Positions 25,193 to 31,670 of a stretch of 38,594 bases of DNA are shown here, piece after piece. Both the position numbers and the translations under genes were made by a program. Positions within the stretch are counted from its first letter, which is position 1. Each line of letters starts with the position of its first letter. The notes under the pieces are model-generated. The model saw nothing but the letters and a program-made list of their open reading frames with translations. It was not told the origin of the DNA and did not search any database. Source of the DNA: a virus; the IMG/VR virus record IMGVR_UViG_3300025362_000002, positions 1-38,594 of that record. The stretch is one strand, 5' to 3'.

Positions 25193-25558
25193 TTAGCTCA
25201 CTCCTGCAAGCAAGGTCCCTTCGCTAACGATAGAGGATCCGCTTTCTATTGCAATTTGTAAACTTGTTACTGTGACTCCTGAATTAATAGTTGCGACTGC
25301 ATTGCTTTCTACAAGGAAAGTTTCTCCACTACAATCAAGGTTTGTGAAAATAACTGTGTTTGTTGAGATGGTGCAGGAAGTTGCTTCTCCAAGAGTAAGA
25401 TTGACACTATCCGCTGAAGGAATAGAGTATCCACTTGTTAGACTGAGATTTACTGAACTAGCACTTGGAGGGGTATATGCTTCAACCAAACTAACCATAG
25501 CTATAACTAACAAACATATAAGACCAACCACTATTAGAGATCTATTTTCTTCTATCAT
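25193..25558 (-). CDS. Small secreted/anchored protein with an internal PSA(S/D)SVNL(S/T)L repeat
   Basis: N-terminus MIEENRSLIVVGLICLLVIAMVSLVEA|YTPP looks like a signal peptide or anchor. ATGA overlap with the stop of the 1208-aa gene. Confidence 0.55.
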   Translation of the reverse strand: MIEENRSLIVVGLICLLVIAMVSLVEAYTPPSASSVNLSLTSGYSIPSADSVNLTLGEATSCTISTNTVIFTNLDCSGETFLVESNAVATINSGVTVTSLQIAIESGSSIVSEGTLLAGVS

Positions 25559-28500
25559 TGTGTCACGTTAAGGAAATGTTTGCAGTCTGAATTAATTGAT
25601 TCATTAGTAGGTTCATAAGCTACCACAAAATAATTCTTTCCTGTATCATTAAGTAAAAATTGATAATATCCTGAAGCATTACTTGTTTGATTTTCAATGA
25701 ATGCGTATGTTGCTTGATCATAAAGTAATACTGTTGCTGAAGGAATAGCTACTGAAGAACCATCTAGAGTATATCCTGTAATTGCTCTCAATAAATAACT
25801 AACATTTAATGCTCCACTAGTGCTTGCTGCAGACATTAAAGTAACAGACGCTGCATTTCTACAAGCTAAATAAACACTATTGTAACCACTATCTGCAACG
25901 AATGCATCTGCAACAGATAAAGAACAAACTTGATCATATGACCCTGTTGTTGTACAATTTCTATCAGTACCCATTATAGTCCAATTAGCATCAGTTATAC
26001 CTATACGGCAATCAGTAGTTTCGTTAGTTGAGAATCTTATGGTTGGTGTAGAGTCGAGAGTATCTGAAGGTGTTGCTTGATTTGTTCTCCAAACTATAGA
26101 CTCTGCATCATCAGTTGCTGTTGAATGATTATAAGTGGAACTTAATATCCCTGGAATGGTTTCTGTGAGATTAAACAAACTGAGTACATCTGTTCTGTAA
26201 CTATTAGCATAATCAACAACCAAATGTGTTGAGTTACTATTTAACGTCACGTACCCATTCGCATCATTACTCGCCATATCATCAAGACCATAATAAGGAA
26301 TACTGTTTATTACTTCGTAACGATTAGCATGAGTATGACCACTAAAAACAGCCAACACTTTCCCACTATCTTCTAATATTGTTCTAAGAACTGTTTTATT
26401 AGTTACAGGATACGTTGCATCATTATCAATTTTAAAATGAACAAAAACCAAAACATTATTTTTAGTAGTTGCTTGAAGTGTGCTATTAATTAAATCTAAT
26501 TCTTCATCCCAAAATGAAGCGAAATCACTCCCATTTGAACCATCAAGGAACATAAACAAAAAATCTTCATACTCCCACGTGTGCAAAAAACAAGTTTCAT
26601 TATCATTATCTGTTGTACAAGTTGTTTTAAAATCATATTCAGGATGCCAATCATATACATCAGGCTTATCTAGAACTGCGTGCTCGTGATTACCAATAAC
26701 TGAACCCCAAAAATATTTATTAACAGCAGTATTGTTTGTTTGTCTTAATCTCCAATCTTCAAATTCAGTCCATGCTTGTGCATCACTAGTAAAGCCTTCT
26801 CGTTGATGTGTGTGATCTCCCAGACTAATCATAGCACCATAATCATTAGCTAAAACATAATTACTTAATGTATTCAGTGCTGGTCGGTTATCACCATTAT
26901 AATCGTTGTCATGAGATATATGTAAATCACTGTATAATAATAATTTCAGAGTATCACTTATTCTTGTAGTTATTTGACCGTTTGAACTATCTGAATAAGC
27001 ACCGTTTTCTGCAAAAGCACTCCAATTGTATAAAGTGTTCTCTGTTAAACCAGTAAGTCTTAACCATCTAGCACCATTTGAAACAGTAACATTTGAGAAA
27101 CTTAGAACTGCACCACCAATACTAGGTTGTAAGTACGCACTAAAATTATAACTTGATGAACTGTTTAAATGAACAACTGCTGTTGTGCTGTCAACCCAAC
27201 GCATACCACTTGACACAACGAAAGGAGAAACTGTTAAAATTATTGTTTCGCTTAAAATGTCACCATCGGTATTGTTTACACTAACATTTATTGAATAAGC
27301 ACCCGCACTTAAAGGCGAAGAATTAATAAAATATCCTGTGCTATTCATACTAAAGCCACTTGTTGCATTAATAAAAAAAGTGTCAATAGTATCTGAAGTT
27401 GTCACGTTATACTGAACAGCAACCGAAGAAGTTTCAGGAACAGAAAAACTTGCAGGTGTTTGAGTCCAAGCAAAATTTGAACCATAAGGATCAAGTACTA
27501 CTCCGCTATTATTTAATACTATTATTTCTGCTTCTGTTATTATCCTACTAAAGAACATTATTTGGTCTATTCCACCATCAAAATAGTCTTGAGAACCATT
27601 CTCATGTGCTCCTAGGGTATTATATATTGCAGTTATATCTGTTAAATCACTTGCATCTGTTCCAGAATATTCTAGGTTTCCATTCAGATACACCTTTTGA
27701 TTGCCACTCTCAAGAAGTACTACAATATGATTCCATTGATTTAATGGCCAATCAGGCAGAGTACCATCTGACATCTTCCAATTATTCCCTATCTCATAAT
27801 CTACATTTAATTTCCCACTAGTGTCTAGGATAATATGAAATTTATTACTAGTGTCTTCAAGAATAGATATAATTCTATCATCTTGTCCTGTAGCAGTTGA
27901 TGTACTTTTTGCCCACACACTTATACTTGTAGATGGGTAATCGTCTACTGTTAAAGGCATAGTCATAGAATCTGTAGTACCGTTAAAATCATAGTAATAA
28001 TTTGTACCGCTTTCAAGTGTTCTCACAGACCCGTTATTAATTAAAGTAGAAGCATTAGTACCATCACTTAGTAAAGAAGTATCATTATTATTATAACTCC
28101 AACTTTCAAAGGCATCATCTACTGCAGCTGATACGTCTGTAATAGTGTATACAGCTGTAGTGGAAATACTATTGTTACTAGTGTCGTTAACACTGATATT
28201 AATAGAGTAATCTCCAATACTAATAGCAGTAGTATTACTCAGATATCCTGTAGTATTCATGCTAAAGCCAGTTGTTGTGTTAATAAAGTAAGTATCAATA
28301 GCAACACTATCTGTAGCATTATATTGTATCCCTATACTTTCTGCATCTGTAAAAACTACATTTGCAGGTGTTTGAGTCCATGTAGGGTCTGTAGTGTCAG
28401 CAGCTCCAGGTACAAAATTTCGCCCAGCTGTATTAATATCAGCAATATCTGCAGCACTTAGGGATCTATTCCAAAAGACAACATCAGAAATTTGACCATC

Positions 28501-29827: not shown

Positions 29828-31446
29828 TAAGTCATCACCGTGTGAGTTCCGTTATAATAAATATAATGAGCACAAGTTACACCATCAAGACATACTTTGT
29901 CTGTTGAATCCACAGTGACGTTTTTGAAAGTCACAGCACTAGTTGTTGTTAAAGCCTGATTAATATAAACATCAGCTATTTGAGTGTCACCTATACTTCC
30001 TGCTGTAACGCTTAAACCATCTGAGTCTTGAGTTAAAGCAGTATTACCTGCAACACTGAAAGTTGTTCCCGACAAAGAGATACCATTTCCTGCACTGTAT
30101 GTTGCTCCTGAAGGAGTTGCACATTCCCAAGCACTACTCGTTCCGTTATAAGAATAAAATTGTGTGTTTGCACATGCTGCAAGACTGATCGTTCCTGATC
30201 CTGTAATTGTACCGCCACTTATTGGACTTGTTGTTGCTACACTCGTAACTGTTCCAACATAAGATTCTGATTGTAAATATTCAGTACAACTTCCGAAGTT
30301 TCCTTTTGTATCTATTGTTTGAGGTGCGTATCCTGCGCTACAATCTGTGGGGTTTGCTGCAAGGTCTGTTGCTGTATCAGCGTTTCCTATTAAGTCACCA
30401 ATAAAAGAGTCACTTGCAGATATATTACCTATAACATCTAGTGCTTCTGATGGTGTGTCTGTATTAACACCTATGTTCCCACTTGTTCCAATAAATAAAC
30501 TATGTTCTGCACTACCAGCTTGTATTTTGAAAACATCTAATCCTGTATTAACATCTTCTATCACAAAATATCCGCTACCATCTACTCTTGTTTTCCAATC
30601 TCCACCACTCGCGTAATCTTTCACTTCAAAAGAAGCACCACCTAATCCATATCTATTATATGATAAAAATATAGGTTCGTAACCGTCTGGCATTAATTTT
30701 AATACATTTTCGCTGCCGCCACCAATATTACTTTCAATAAGGAGTTTTGTATCTTGTAACGTGTGAGTTGCATTCCACATCGGCAAATAAGTATTTGTTC
30801 CAGTACCATCAACATAATTAGCAGTTACACCATACGCAACTATTGAACTATTCAATTCAGCTTCATCAAAAGTTAACACATTAGATAAATCACTAAACCA
30901 TTTAGATTGAATAGAGGTCATGCTAGCCCAACTGGTTGCTGTATCTGAGTGATTGACATTTAAGTTCGCTTCTTCACTCTGAGCAATATAAATCCCATCT
31001 GCTGCACTCTCATTCCATGATTGATTGTCATAAAGATTTAAGGATCCTTCAGTCAAGTCATCAGTAGTTTTCGCGCTCAAATGAGTATCAAATAATGCAC
31101 TGAGCCATGATTCTTTAAGCTGTAATATCAAGCCAGTACTGAATTGTGTTAAGTTCGCACTCGTGAAACCATACCATTGAGTAGCTATTCCTGAAGTTGC
31201 TGAGTGATTAACATTAAGGTCTGCTTGGTCTGTTTCGCCATCCCAACTCGTTGCGCTATCAGCGTTACCAGTAATGTTTCCAGTGAATGCACCATTGAAA
31301 GTTGTCGCGTTCACATTAGTCGCATTATAAATATCGTTAGTGCCCATCTCGAGATTCTCATCTACTCTAAAAGGCCCAGCCATAACAAGTCCCGAACAGA
31401 GTAAAACCGCAAGGATTATTCCGATTAAATTAATTGTTAGTTTCAT
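29827..31446 (-). CDS. Fibre-like protein with a signal-peptide-like N-terminus
   Basis: MKLTINLIGIILAVLLCSGLVMA|GPF. GNADSAT/GNADTAT fibre-repeat-like motifs, two LNVNHS(A/D)T repeats, and G-x-G-I-S-L type beta-repeats at the C-terminus. Confidence 0.55.
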   Translation of the reverse strand: MKLTINLIGIILAVLLCSGLVMAGPFRVDENLEMGTNDIYNATNVNATTFNGAFTGNITGNADSATSWDGETDQADLNVNHSATSGIATQWYGFTSANLTQFSTGLILQLKESWLSALFDTHLSAKTTDDLTEGSLNLYDNQSWNESAADGIYIAQSEEANLNVNHSDTATSWASMTSIQSKWFSDLSNVLTFDEAELNSSIVAYGVTANYVDGTGTNTYLPMWNATHTLQDTKLLIESNIGGGSENVLKLMPDGYEPIFLSYNRYGLGGASFEVKDYASGGDWKTRVDGSGYFVIEDVNTGLDVFKIQAGSAEHSLFIGTSGNIGVNTDTPSEALDVIGNISASDSFIGDLIGNADTATDLAANPTDCSAGYAPQTIDTKGNFGSCTEYLQSESYVGTVTSVATTSPISGGTITGSGTISLAACANTQFYSYNGTSSAWECATPSGATYSAGNGISLSGTTFSVAGNTALTQDSDGLSVTAGSIGDTQIADVYINQALTTTSAVTFKNVTVDSTDKVCLDGVTCAHYIYYNGTHTVMT

Positions 31447-31670
31447 GTTGTTAACACCTTTTTCCAGTCACTCACTGCCGAAGTTCCCATCGCGATATAC
31501 ATCTTTAAATTAGTTGTATCAATATAAATATATCCTACTGCATCTGGAGCAGCCGAAGGCACTCCTAGTCCTGTCGTCACTTGAACTCTAGCTTTCTGGT
31601 CCGTAACCATATTATTCCAGTCTGCAGAGAGGAAGTCGTCAGTTGCTACTTTTGTATCGTCCCATGCCAT
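31443..31670 (-). CDS. Small fibre-associated-like protein
   Basis: 75 aa. GYIYIDTTNLKMYIAMGTSAVSDWKKV resembles the G.hY.DT....hY...G...W motif common in phage fibre N-termini. ATGA overlap with the fibre-like gene. Confidence 0.4.
   Translation of the reverse strand: MAWDDTKVATDDFLSADWNNMVTDQKARVQVTTGLGVPSAAPDAVGYIYIDTTNLKMYIAMGTSAVSDWKKVLTT

What the first reader, a model, noticed from the sequence alone, without database searches (positions are those of the whole stretch)
25193..31670. Block of signal-peptide/anchor proteins inserted in the middle of the virion assembly operon, partly AT-rich
Five consecutive genes start with classic hydrophobic export or anchor segments:
- MIEENRSLIVVGLICLLVIAMVSLVEA
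- MYKQISLVFIIISMLVLCMGPVSA
- the 37-aa micro-protein MNKKIVISTPHLLTGLIIIGILLLGGLAVILPRKRGK
- MKLTQKVILGILTLIIVSGG
- MKLTINLIGIILAVLLCSGLVMA

The block sits between the gp6-like connector (31673..32500) and the head-closure and gp10-like genes (24208..25190). In HK97/SPP1-type modules these genes are normally neighbours.

The genes are translationally coupled to one another and to their neighbours. There are ATGA overlaps at 25555/25558, 29297/29300 and 31443/31446, and a TAATG overlap at 29827.

Hand GC counts on single 60-nt lines inside 25.56-29.83 kb give:
- 15/60 (26401..26460)
- 22/60 (27001..27060)
- 18/60 (28201..28260)
- 20/60 (29401..29460)

The backbone gives:
- 33/60 (5041..5100)
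- 24/60 (12001..12060)
- 32/60 (21301..21360)
- 25/60 (36301..36360)

This suggests a horizontally acquired island. The 539-aa fibre-like gene is backbone-like at 24/60 (30001..30060).

Tailed virions have no membrane, and their structural proteins normally lack signal peptides. These products are therefore either exported to the host surface (surface remodelling, adhesion, superinfection exclusion, receptor destruction) or are an unusual class of neck/head appendages.
Basis: partly seen in the sequence, partly recalled or inferred. Interest (0 to 1): 0.85.

Follow-up and report, generated by a model that had tools for sequence, protein, structure and literature searches.

The report
Exported glycoprotein fibres in archaeal virus
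A tailed virus that probably infects tiny symbiotic (DPANN) archaea carries, among its neck genes, a swappable set of fibre, lectin and enzyme genes whose products look built for export and sugar-coating, which ordinary tailed-virus particle proteins are not.

Summary
Five consecutive minus-strand genes (25193-31446) are the only proteins in this complete 38.5-kb tailed-virus genome with N-terminal hydrophobic segments. The overlaps and GC counts are exact. GC is 0.343 against 0.405 elsewhere, and GC3 is 0.16-0.25.

It is not a one-off insertion. About 20 related viral contigs carry a signal-peptide fibre at the same site, between the head-tail adaptor and the head-closure gene. It is usually followed by a membrane-anchored, cysteine-rich or LamG protein. 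One distant relative lacks the block.

The contents are mosaic. B1208, C37 and D176 are unique here.

The key new result concerns N-x-S/T glycosylation sequons.
- Signal-bearing block proteins have 397, against 216 expected.
- Signal-less fibres at the same locus (45 against 41) and backbone proteins (50 against 50) show no excess.
- Signal-bearing proteins carry 3-15 cysteines, against 0-2.

So these proteins are very probably exported, N-glycosylated and disulfide-bonded. MAG binning and a cellular homologue point to a DPANN archaeal host.

Where the proteins end up is open. I lean towards display on the infected cell surface (0.45). The rival is attachment to virions after export (0.3).

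LamG genes in DPANN viruses were already reported. The export signature and the neck locus were not.

The parts
31673..32500 (-). Upstream flank: 275-aa head-tail adaptor ('connector') candidate.
   Evidence: PHROG 442 head-tail adaptor, E 0.0077. It has the same position in all relatives at 34-90% identity. No PDB or Pfam hit.
31443..31670 (-). F75: a 75-aa signal-less small appendage protein. It has a conserved ~28-aa N-terminal 'anchor' plus a beta-hairpin-like C-terminal part. It is not part of the exported set.
   Evidence: No hydrophobic segment and 0 sequons. PHROG 9464 at 1.9e-6. It is 51-79% identical in relatives. In L001 and L009 the same domain is the N-terminus of long signal-less fibres, and in L008 the anchor is fused to another small domain. 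Its last codons (GG AAR AAG GTG AT) form a conserved Shine-Dalgarno-like site for E539.
29827..31446 (-). E539: a modular fibre-like protein with an N-terminal Sec-type signal peptide (MKLTINLIGIILAVLLCSGLVMA|GPF...).
   Evidence: Hydrophobic segment at 7-23. 14 sequons against 9 expected. Homologues at the same locus in relatives keep the signal peptide and the motif after it. Of 69 database homologues, 52 have an N-terminal hydrophobic segment, with 1335 sequons against 748 expected. It shares the tail-fibre module 'DTTYSAGNGISLSGTTFSVAGNTALTQDSDGLSVT'. The AF2 model was poor, with only the N-terminal helix confident.
29297..29827 (-). D176: a protein with an N-terminal membrane anchor or signal and 10 cysteines, immediately downstream of the fibre gene.
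   Evidence: Hydrophobic segment at 7-23 and 10 Cys. No sequence homologue in 5.8 billion proteins. Relatives have anchored Cys-rich proteins at the same position (L004 230 aa, L013 106 aa, L021 157 aa, L006 340 aa, L022 2143 aa, L023 636 aa). Alignment to D176 itself is weak.
29187..29300 (-). C37: a 37-aa single-pass membrane micro-protein.
   Evidence: Hydrophobic segment at 15-31 and a basic C-terminus. It overlaps D176 by ATGA. No counterpart was seen in relatives.
25555..29181 (-). B1208: a signal-peptide protein. An alternative start at 29151 gives MYKQISLVFIIISMLVLCMGPVSA|IDW. It has two LamG/ConA-like lectin domains, Ig-like segments, a calcineurin-like metallophosphoesterase domain and a CarboxypepD_reg-like C-terminal domain.
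   Evidence: Pfam Laminin_G_3 at 9e-38 (2 stretches), Metallophos at 9e-6 (26.7 bits against a cut-off of 21.5), CarboxypepD_reg at 0.019. Metallophosphoesterase motifs can be read in the sequence: DLH, GDHTH, GNHEH, VHF, GHTH. 44 sequons against 21.6 expected, z 5.9. No full-length homologue other than itself. GC3 is 0.18.
25193..25558 (-). A121: a small signal-peptide protein with two 'Y-x-x-P-x-x-x-x-V-N-L-x-L' repeats and a Cys-containing C-terminal domain. It is the partner module of B-type proteins.
   Evidence: Hydrophobic segment at 9-25. 23 representative homologues, nearly all 80-135-aa signal-peptide proteins. In P0099 the same module is the C-terminus of a signal-bearing, sequon-rich 491-aa protein whose preceding segment resembles a CarboxypepD_reg domain by eye. 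L004 has a homologue at the same position. The C-terminal domain of that L004 homologue also recurs in the cellular contig L020.
24666..25190 (-). Downstream flank: 174-aa head-closure (lambda FII-like) candidate.
   Evidence: Conserved position and 31-73% identity in relatives. One of 11 family members hits Pfam Phage_attach at 7e-4. In L019 this domain is fused behind a signal-less DUF2341+LamG region.
24208..24666 (-). Downstream flank: 152-aa HK97 gp10-like tail-completion (Neck1) protein.
   Evidence: PHROG 5 at 1.6e-13. Pfam HK97-gp10_like at 0.0025, below the cut-off.

Best explanation
The segment is the fibre/adhesin cassette of a short-tailed, siphovirus-like virus of DPANN (Woesearchaeales-like) archaea. 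It occupies a conserved recombination hot spot between the head-tail adaptor gene and the head-closure gene.

Proposed mechanism:
1. The cassette is translated together with the late neck genes.
2. Five of its six products carry Sec-type signal peptides or signal anchors.
3. They are moved across the cytoplasmic membrane, N-glycosylated at abundant N-x-S/T sites by the host oligosaccharyltransferase, and stabilised by disulfides.
4. They therefore act on the outer face of the infected cell.

The parts:
- E539 is a modular fibre derived from phage tail-fibre modules.
- D176 and C37 are membrane-anchored partners. D176 sits where fibre chaperone or holder genes usually lie.
- B1208 plus A121 form a lectin and phosphoesterase unit.
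- F75 is a separate, non-exported virion appendage.

My lean is that the exported set works as an infected-cell surface module. It would provide adhesion and envelope remodelling of the tiny symbiont cell, such as keeping or making contacts, or masking or cleaving receptors. On this lean it is not a set of cytoplasmically assembled virion parts.

Shown: gene order, hydrophobic N-termini, sequon and cysteine signature, domain content, locus conservation, mosaicism.
Inferred: actual export, glycosylation, host identity, site and purpose of action.
For: Export signature:
- The only five N-terminal hydrophobic segments among 44 proteins are consecutive.
- Across relatives the h-region varies, but small residues at -3 and -1 (VMA|G, VSA|G, ATA|G, VSA|Y) are kept.
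- Signal-bearing block proteins of the window and relatives have 397 N-x-S/T sequons. Shuffling predicts 216, and the reversed pattern occurs 213 times.
- Signal-less proteins at the same locus give 45 observed, 41 expected and 40 reversed. The window backbone gives 50, 50 and 54.
- The same holds in L022-L024 (z up to 9.8) and in 52 database homologues (1335 observed, 748 expected, 747 reversed).
- Signal-bearing proteins mostly have 5-15 Cys (3 in A121). Signal-less counterparts have 0-2.

The cassette works without tailed virions:
- A homologous set (an E-like protein, then a protein carrying the C-terminal domain seen in L004's A121 homologue, then another signal protein) sits among housekeeping genes in an archaeal MAG contig. 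Its neighbours include ERCC4/XPF, a helicase, a diphthamide-synthase-like gene and a GTPase.
- It shows the same sequon excess, 67 against 23.
- Fibre plus LamG pairs also occur in other mobile elements rich in membrane proteins.

Host: 4 of 6 MCP relatives in genome bins are Woesearchaeota or Nanoarchaeota.

Domains: LamG twice, Metallophos with intact motifs, CarboxypepD_reg-like.

Literature: CPR/DPANN viruses were reported to carry concanavalin/LamG 'cell-surface modification' genes, proposed to aid symbiont adhesion (PMC11310336).

Co-expression: 4-nt overlaps and a conserved SD-like site. There is no excess of promoter-like or terminator-like sites.
Against: - No dedicated signal-peptide predictor was run.
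- Glycosylation is inferred from sequon statistics only.
- Host assignment rests on metagenomic binning of contigs of viral-genome size, not on integration or CRISPR spacers.
- A fibre at this locus is universal in the clade, which is unusual for an accessory gene. Where the signal-peptide fibre is missing, a signal-less fibre (L001, L009) or a LamG domain fused directly to the head-closure protein (L019) takes its place. This argues that the locus encodes virion appendages.
- E539 is built from tail-fibre modules, and relatives end in a Peptidase_S74 chaperone domain.
- The tail-tip protein is about as conserved as the backbone (51% identity to L021). That leaves the cassette as the main hypervariable adhesin.
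- In L026 the pair lies downstream of tail genes (weak hits).
Confidence: 0.45

Rival explanations
1. Exported first, virion-bound later. The fibre, and perhaps the lectin-enzyme unit, are true neck or collar appendages and the main host-recognition fibres. They are routed through the Sec pathway so they can be N-glycosylated and disulfide-bonded, held at the outer membrane face by D176 or C37, and picked up by cytoplasmically assembled particles at lysis. Docking could be via F75 or the neck proteins.
For: - The locus lies inside the neck gene cluster, is tightly coupled, and is present in about 20 relatives.
- Functional replacement occurs at the same site by signal-less fibres carrying the F75 anchor domain (L001, L009) and by a LamG-head-closure fusion (L019).
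- E539 shares tail-fibre modules with relatives, some of which carry S74 chaperone domains.
- An anchored Cys-rich gene sits directly after the fibre, where fibre-assembly genes usually lie.
- No other hypervariable fibre exists in the tail module.
- In membrane-protein-rich elements the same pair would naturally be an envelope spike.
Against: - I found no precedent for a Sec-exported component of a tailed virion.
- The motif after the signal peptide is shared with homologues that have no tailed-virus context. It is therefore not a specific neck-docking domain.
- E539 and B1208 have no membrane anchor of their own after cleavage.
- No interaction could be modelled. Only single chains could be predicted, and those models were poor.
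Confidence: 0.3
2. Ordinary cytoplasmic neck or head fibres. On this view the hydrophobic N-termini are structural, for example trimerisation or insertion helices, and nothing is exported.
For: The position is among neck genes, and E539 is fibre-like and mosaic. Signal-less fibres occur at the same locus in some relatives.
Against: - This does not explain why sequon excess and cysteine content track the hydrophobic N-terminus so closely. The sequon counts are 397 against 216 for signal-bearing proteins and 45 against 41 for signal-less ones. Cysteines are mostly 5-15 per signal-bearing protein (3 in A121) against 0-2.
- It does not explain why the -3/-1 small-residue pattern is conserved.
- It does not explain why a cellular homologue among housekeeping genes has the same features.
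Confidence: 0.08
3. A recently acquired moron-type island for lysogenic conversion or superinfection exclusion, comparable to lambda Lom/Bor, HK97 gp15 or T5 Llp.
For: - GC and GC3 are lower than the backbone.
- B1208, C37 and D176 have no counterpart in relatives.
- The products are exported.
Against: - The locus and its fibre are ancestral to the clade.
- There is no excess of promoter-like or terminator-like sites, and the genes overlap their neighbours.
- No integrase-sized ORF was seen in the genome.
- There is no lipobox.
- The products are far larger than known exclusion proteins.
Confidence: 0.07
4. Assembly chimera: host DNA for surface proteins was mis-joined into a viral contig.
For: There is a compositional step, and a cellular homologue exists.
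Against: The same architecture occurs in many independent assemblies from different samples. Exact gene overlaps exist at both edges. The contig closes on itself with a 127-nt terminal repeat.
Confidence: 0.02

Closest known systems
Concanavalin/LamG 'cell-surface modification' genes reported in CPR/DPANN viruses (groundwater virome, Nat Commun 2024, PMC11310336)
   Same: Viruses linked to DPANN archaea carry LamG/ConA-like proteins thought to act in cell adhesion. B1208 has two such domains, and relatives carry LamG, MAM or DUF2341 proteins.
   Different: That report lists the domains as auxiliary genes. Its text has no mention of signal peptides. I saw no treatment there of sequon enrichment, a fixed locus in the neck module, a paired fibre gene or a phosphoesterase domain. 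Its hosts were Altiarchaeota and EX4484-52, not Woesearchaeales-like bins.
Phage morons encoding exported proteins inside late operons (lambda Lom and Bor, HK97 gp15, T5 Llp, phi80 Cor). Comparison from my own knowledge.
   Same: Exported or membrane proteins are encoded among structural genes, with base composition unlike the backbone.
   Different: Morons are small, sporadic, usually have their own promoter and terminator, and act in lysogens or early. Here the set is 6 kb, universal in the clade, translationally coupled to neck genes, and has no detectable own signals.
Neck and head appendages of tailed phages (lactococcal neck passage structure, T4 fibritin whiskers, phi29 head fibres; my own knowledge) and the HFTV1 capsid turrets with lectin-like and deacetylase-like domains (PMC12494034)
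   Same: Adhesin or enzyme appendages are encoded near head and neck genes. The lectin-plus-enzyme combination resembles HFTV1 turret heads. The signal-less relatives (L001, L009, L019) fit this class well.
   Different: All of those are made and attached in the cytoplasm and lack signal peptides. The window's proteins carry export, glycosylation and disulfide signatures.
N-glycosylated spike or adhesin proteins of membrane-containing archaeal viruses (HRPV-1 VP4, fusellovirus adhesins; my own knowledge, with PMC10384203 listed on the general role of N-glycosylation)
   Same: These are signal-peptide-bearing, host-glycosylated receptor-binding proteins of archaeal viruses. E-like plus LamG pairs also occur in membrane-protein-rich elements.
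   Different: Those viruses acquire spikes by budding through or wrapping with membrane. A tailed HK97-fold virion has no membrane.
Streptococcus mitis phage SM1 PblA/PblB (my own knowledge)
   Same: Tail-fibre-like phage proteins end up as cell-surface adhesins of the host population.
   Different: PblA and PblB lack signal peptides. They reach the surface after phage lysis, and they are bacterial.

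Membership tests
Sec-type signal peptide / signal-anchor proteins | Short polar n-region, 10-20-residue hydrophobic h-region at the N-terminus, and small residues at -3 and -1 for cleaved signals. | tested here: met
   Hydropathy scan and reading of the N-termini of the window proteins and more than 60 homologues. A121's own n-region is acidic, but its family has MKK-type n-regions. D176 and C37 look like anchors rather than cleaved signals. No SignalP run.
Archaeal N-glycoproteins (AglB-dependent) | N-x-S/T sequons on an extracytoplasmic protein. 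| tested here: met
   Sequon excess over shuffles and over the reversed pattern, restricted to signal-bearing proteins.
Archaeal N-glycoproteins (AglB-dependent) | Glycans actually attached. | not testable with these tools
   Needs glycoproteomics.
Concanavalin A-like lectin / LamG (Pfam PF13385) | Profile match above the gathering score. | tested here: met
   B1208 scores 130 bits, E 9e-38, two stretches.
Calcineurin-like metallophosphoesterase (Pfam PF00149) | Profile match above the gathering score, plus metal-binding motifs DxH, GDxxD, GNH[DE], H, GHxH. | tested here: met
   26.7 bits against a cut-off of 21.5. Motifs DLH, GDHTH (a variant of motif II), GNHEH, VHF and GHTH can be read in the sequence. 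There is no PDB sequence hit and the AF2 model is poor, so the fold is not confirmed.
Phage tail fibres with C-terminal intramolecular chaperone (Peptidase_S74, PF13884) | S74 domain at the C-terminus. | tested here: not met
   No Pfam hit in E539. There is only a non-significant MYRF-like match, E 0.92. Some homologues (P0034, P0040, P0083) do carry PF13884.
Phage tail-fibre superfamily (shared modules) | Sequence modules shared with recognised tail fibres. | tested here: met
   The module 'DTTYSAGNGISLSGTTFSVAGNTALTQD..GLSVT' is shared with many fibre-like proteins. These include P0027, a signal-less protein from a Pelagibacter-named record that reads like a phage tail fibre.
Virion neck/head appendage (neck passage structure, whisker, head fibre) | Encoded among neck genes. 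| tested here: met
   The block lies between the adaptor and head-closure candidates in this and related genomes.
Virion neck/head appendage (neck passage structure, whisker, head fibre) | Cytoplasmic protein without an export signal. | tested here: not met
   Five of six products have N-terminal hydrophobic segments and an export signature. Only F75 fits.
Virion neck/head appendage (neck passage structure, whisker, head fibre) | Present in purified virions. | not testable with these tools
   Needs virion proteomics or cryo-EM.
Moron (autonomous insert in a late operon) | Own promoter and terminator. | tested here: inconclusive
   No excess of sigma-70-like promoters or intrinsic terminators (38 against 35.4; 4 against 3.9). 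Genes overlap their neighbours. Archaeal promoter types are not covered by the scan.
Moron (autonomous insert in a late operon) | Sporadic presence among close relatives. | tested here: not met
   A fibre at this locus is present in essentially all relatives. Only the accessory members vary.
Superinfection-exclusion lipoproteins (Llp/Cor type) | Lipobox with cysteine at +1. | tested here: not met
   Reading of the N-termini shows no [ASG]-C cleavage motif. The Cys in the E539 and B1208 signals lies inside the h-region after L.
Diversity-generating retroelement target | Reverse transcriptase plus a template/variable repeat pair. | tested here: not met
   No RT domain in the larger ORFs. No repeat pair involving the block.

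The most novel reading that the evidence does not exclude
Tailed archaeal virions may finish assembly outside the cytoplasm. On this reading, the host-recognition fibres (and a lectin-phosphoesterase unit) are secreted through Sec. They are N-glycosylated by the host and parked on the outer membrane face by small anchored partners. They are then attached to the neck of cytoplasmically built particles at lysis. That would be a split intracellular and extracellular assembly route unknown for Caudoviricetes.
Probability: 0.3. Interest if true: 0.9.

Novelty: new variant of a known kind. Interest (0 to 1): 0.7.

Why it matters
- Particle proteins of tailed viruses are regarded as cytoplasmic. Here a whole clade of tailed archaeal viruses encodes its only hypervariable fibre, plus lectin and enzyme partners, as apparently exported, glycosylated proteins inside the neck gene cluster.
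- Two outcomes are possible. Either these viruses remodel the surface of ultrasmall symbiotic archaea, whose lifestyle depends on cell-cell contact, or they use an unrecognised extracellular step in virion assembly. Both can be tested directly.
- The signature is simple: signal peptide, plus sequon excess, plus cysteines. Signal-less fibres at the same locus act as built-in controls.
- That gives a sequence-only way to find such proteins, and possibly to flag archaeal hosts, in viral metagenomes.

Tried and rejected
- **Structure prediction:** The AlphaFold2 model of E539, built on a 38-sequence alignment, reached mean pLDDT 50. The C-terminal half of B1208 as a single sequence reached 39. Both were too poor for fold searches, so none were run.
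- **PDB sequence searches:** Searches with B1208, E539, the Metallophos region, and the connector and head-closure profiles gave nothing significant.
- **Family and phage databases:** NCBIfam gave nothing. The INPHARED phage collection had no match for the MCP or B1208.
- **D176:** It has no homologue. Its link to the anchored Cys-rich proteins of relatives is positional, with only weak alignment.
- **-1 frameshift joining F75 to E539:** Rejected. The AAA AAG seen here is AAG AAG in most relatives, and the conserved bases look like a Shine-Dalgarno site.
- **DGR targeting of the LamG protein:** Rejected. There is no RT and no repeat pair.
- **Lipoprotein anchoring:** Rejected. There is no lipobox.
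- **Paralogy with tail proteins:** Rejected by BLAST.
- **Moron-type autonomous transcription:** Not supported.
- **Assembly chimera:** Rejected by synteny in many independent contigs.
- **Literature:** Searches found no report of signal-peptide fibres in tailed archaeal viruses.

Full report
**What the window is**

All substantial ORFs lie on the minus strand. The window encodes:
- a portal fused to a Mu F-like domain, a large terminase, two DNA methylases, a Sak annealing protein and a PD-(D/E)XK nuclease;
- an SU10-type HK97-fold major capsid protein and a prohead protease-like protein;
- a Phage_tube_2 tail tube, a gp10-like tail-completion protein and a 327-aa tape-measure protein.

The first and last 127 nt are identical. 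This is therefore a complete 38,467-bp genome of a short-tailed, siphovirus-like virus. No tRNA was found. The deposited-phage collection has no relative.

**Checking the observation**

A hydropathy scan of 44 proteins found N-terminal hydrophobic segments in exactly five. They are consecutive: A121, B1208, C37, D176 and E539. The ATGA and TAATG overlaps are real, and all nine hand GC counts are exact.

GC is 0.343 over 25193-29827, 0.382 in E539 and 0.405 elsewhere. The 1-kb windows inside the block lie about 3 sd below those outside. The difference sits at third codon positions, where GC3 is 0.16-0.25. The range given also includes F75 (31443-31670), which has no hydrophobic segment.

**The locus is conserved but its contents are not**

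Thirteen IMG/VR contigs found through the connector, six contigs from genome bins found through the capsid protein, and further contigs found through E539 homologues were compared gene by gene.

- Almost all have the order connector, often F75, then a long protein with an N-terminal signal peptide, then the head-closure gene, then the gp10-like gene.
- The signal-peptide fibre is usually followed by a protein with an N-terminal membrane anchor and many cysteines. That protein ranges from 106 to 2143 aa and often carries LamG or MAM domains.
- L004 also has a homologue of A121 at the same position.
- The most distant relative, L018, has connector, a 123-aa head-closure-like gene and gp10-like with nothing in between.
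- Three relatives carry signal-less proteins at the site. L001 and L009 have the F75 domain fused to a long fibre. L019 has DUF2341 plus LamG fused directly onto the head-closure domain.
- B1208 has no full-length homologue, D176 none at all, and C37 no visible counterpart.
- The block has lower GC3 than the backbone in nearly every relative: 0.14-0.24 against 0.24-0.45.

This fits a cassette repeatedly exchanged with a low-GC pool. It does not fit a single acquisition by this genome.

**Are the proteins really exported?**

No signal-peptide predictor was available, so I looked for independent marks of extracytoplasmic life.

| Protein set | N-x-S/T observed | Expected from shuffles | Reversed pattern |
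|---|---|---|---|
| Signal-bearing block proteins, window and relatives | 397 | 216 | 213 |
| Signal-less proteins at the same locus | 45 | 41 | 40 |
| Window backbone | 50 | 50 | 54 |
| B1208 alone | 44 | 21.6 (z 5.9) | 26 |
| 52 signal-bearing database homologues of E539 | 1335 | 748 | 747 |

- B1208 has no internal repeats that could inflate its count.
- More distant viruses show the same pattern, with z up to 9.8.
- Signal-bearing proteins mostly have 5-15 cysteines (3 in A121). Signal-less counterparts have 0-2.
- Signal sequences vary in their hydrophobic core but keep small residues at -3 and -1.

Together these make export, N-glycosylation and disulfide bonding very likely. I put this at about 0.85.

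**Host**

- Four of six capsid relatives in genome bins are labelled Woesearchaeota or Nanoarchaeota. One is Methanosarcinales and one WOR-3. These contigs are of viral size, so the link is by binning only.
- P0018, an E539 homologue, lies in an NCBI 'MAG: archaeon' contig among housekeeping genes. These include a T2SSE ATPase, ERCC4/XPF, a DEAD helicase, an M16 peptidase, a diphthamide-synthase-like gene and a GTPase.
- P0018 is followed by a signal-bearing protein. That protein's C-terminus matches the C-terminal domain of L004's A121 homologue.
- P0018 has 67 sequons against 23 expected, while its cytoplasmic neighbours have none in excess.

So archaea of this kind make the same sort of surface protein. 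The cassette can exist without any virion genes.

**The parts**

- **E539** is a mosaic of modules shared with about 70 fibre-like proteins. One is a signal-less protein from a Pelagibacter-named record that reads like a tail fibre. Several end in a Peptidase_S74 chaperone domain. E539 itself has no such domain.
- **B1208** combines two LamG domains, a metallophosphoesterase domain with all metal-binding motifs readable, and a CarboxypepD_reg-like end.
- **A121** belongs to a family of small secreted proteins. In P0099 the A121-type module is fused to the end of a larger signal-bearing, sequon-rich protein, so B1208 and A121 probably work together.
- **D176 and C37** are small membrane-anchored proteins.
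- **F75** has a conserved 28-aa N-terminal segment that other relatives fuse to different distal parts. It behaves like a virion-attached appendage.

Other contexts for the fibre-plus-LamG pair:
- mobile elements rich in small multi-pass membrane proteins, one with a D5-type primase;
- downstream of weakly tape-measure-like and tail-like genes in L026.

**How it probably works**

The genes overlap each other. Their neighbours lie only 2 nt away. A conserved Shine-Dalgarno-like sequence sits in the last codons of F75. No excess of promoter-like or terminator-like sites is present. The set is therefore made together with the late neck proteins, then exported and displayed outside the membrane. 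What happens next is not settled.

For a role at the infected cell surface:
- export is topologically at odds with cytoplasmic assembly;
- the cassette works in cellular and non-tailed contexts;
- DPANN cells depend on surface adhesins, and LamG genes in DPANN viruses were already proposed to aid adhesion (PMC11310336).

For a later role on virions:
- the locus is universal, lies among neck genes, and is replaced by plainly virion-type signal-less fibres or a LamG-head-closure fusion in some relatives;
- E539 is built like a receptor-binding fibre;
- the tail-tip protein is no more variable than the backbone, at 51% identity to L021.

I lean to the surface role at 0.45 against 0.30.

**Comparison with what is known**

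The nearest published idea is the LamG 'cell-surface modification' genes of CPR/DPANN viruses. That work does not mention signal peptides. I saw nothing there on sequons, a fixed neck locus or a paired fibre.

- Morons such as Lom, Bor or HK97 gp15 share the theme of exported proteins in late operons. They are small, sporadic and autonomous.
- Neck passage structures, whiskers, head fibres and the HFTV1 turrets share position or domain logic, but they are cytoplasmic.
- Glycosylated spikes of membrane-containing archaeal viruses share the biogenesis but not the virion type.

I found no report of signal-peptide fibres in tailed archaeal viruses. I therefore class this as a new variant of a known kind.

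**Limits**

- Both structure predictions failed.
- PDB and NCBIfam searches added nothing.
- The connector and head-closure labels rest on weak profile hits and synteny.
- Host identity, export, glycosylation and final location are all inferences that need the experiments listed above.

Noticed in passing
window 1-127 and 38468-38594: There is an exact 127-nt direct repeat at the two ends. The contig closes on itself, giving a complete genome of 38,467 bp (circular or terminally redundant).
   Followed up: partly
window 17259-17555 (-): A 98-aa ORF with two adjacent hydrophobic segments (52-86) lies just after the tail genes. It is a candidate holin-like lysis protein. No endolysin-like gene was recognised.
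   Followed up: no
window 32511-32780 (-): An 89-aa coiled-coil-like protein with a C-terminal transmembrane segment sits between the HHH_5 protein and the connector. It has weak PHROG hits, including one to a holin family (E 0.018).
   Followed up: partly
window 17809-20046 (-): The 745-aa tail-tip protein has a repeated 'H-x-H-x-D-G-S-Y' histidine motif near residues 590-650, also present in L021. It is reminiscent of metal-binding HxH fibre tips. The central part (about 420-590) is the only poorly conserved region.
   Followed up: partly
window 264-2636 (-): The portal protein is fused to a Mu F-like (minor head protein) domain in a single 790-aa ORF. The fusion is conserved in relatives.
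   Followed up: no
window 4780-6069 and 5946-7265 (-): The C5-cytosine methylase ORF and the ParB-N6/N4 methylase ORF overlap by 124 nt as listed. The true methylase start is probably further downstream.
   Followed up: no
window 16309-16352 and 17039-17199: An intergenic 'TAAGGCC' motif occurs three times at 11-nt spacing. Three AT-rich ~33-nt repeats lie 62-66 nt apart. These may be regulatory or origin elements between the replication and tail modules.
   Followed up: no
window 11292-11651 and 12479-12763 (-): Two small genes in the replication module have very low GC (0.30-0.32; GC3 0.23), similar to the block. They may be other exchanged genes.
   Followed up: no
L003 36-2069, L015 4424-6397, L021 1-1259: Large terminase genes of several relatives are 150-340 aa longer than in the window. 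L021 has Intein_splicing hits, which suggests inteins in the terminase.
   Followed up: no
L017 4435-5526 and 8492-9145; L022 16145-16822; L023 11010-11681; L008 7815-8141: A roughly 70-aa domain ('...G(A/S)DC(S/N)G...NR(V/T)LTL.N...') is appended to the N-terminus of the connector and/or head-closure protein, or to the F75 anchor, in different relatives. It looks like a movable neck-decoration domain.
   Followed up: no
L004 17816-18274; L006 12027-12506: HNH-type endonuclease-like ORFs are inserted among the neck and tail genes of relatives. In L004 the ORF lies between the 233-aa protein and the tube gene. In L006 it lies inside the block.
   Followed up: no
L020 9850-15460: An archaeal MAG contig has a four-gene cluster flanked by housekeeping genes. 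The cluster is an RHH-like 53-aa protein, a 934-aa signal-peptide fibre, a Gly-rich signal protein with the C-terminal domain seen in L004's A121 homologue, and a 567-aa signal protein with C-terminal TMs. It is either a host surface-fibre locus or a captured viral cassette.
   Followed up: partly
window 36919-38556 (-) and relatives: The prohead protease/scaffold-like protein keeps its N-terminal (~170 aa) and C-terminal (~120 aa) parts in relatives. Its middle part varies greatly in length, and the whole protein ranges from 332 to 545 aa.
   Followed up: no
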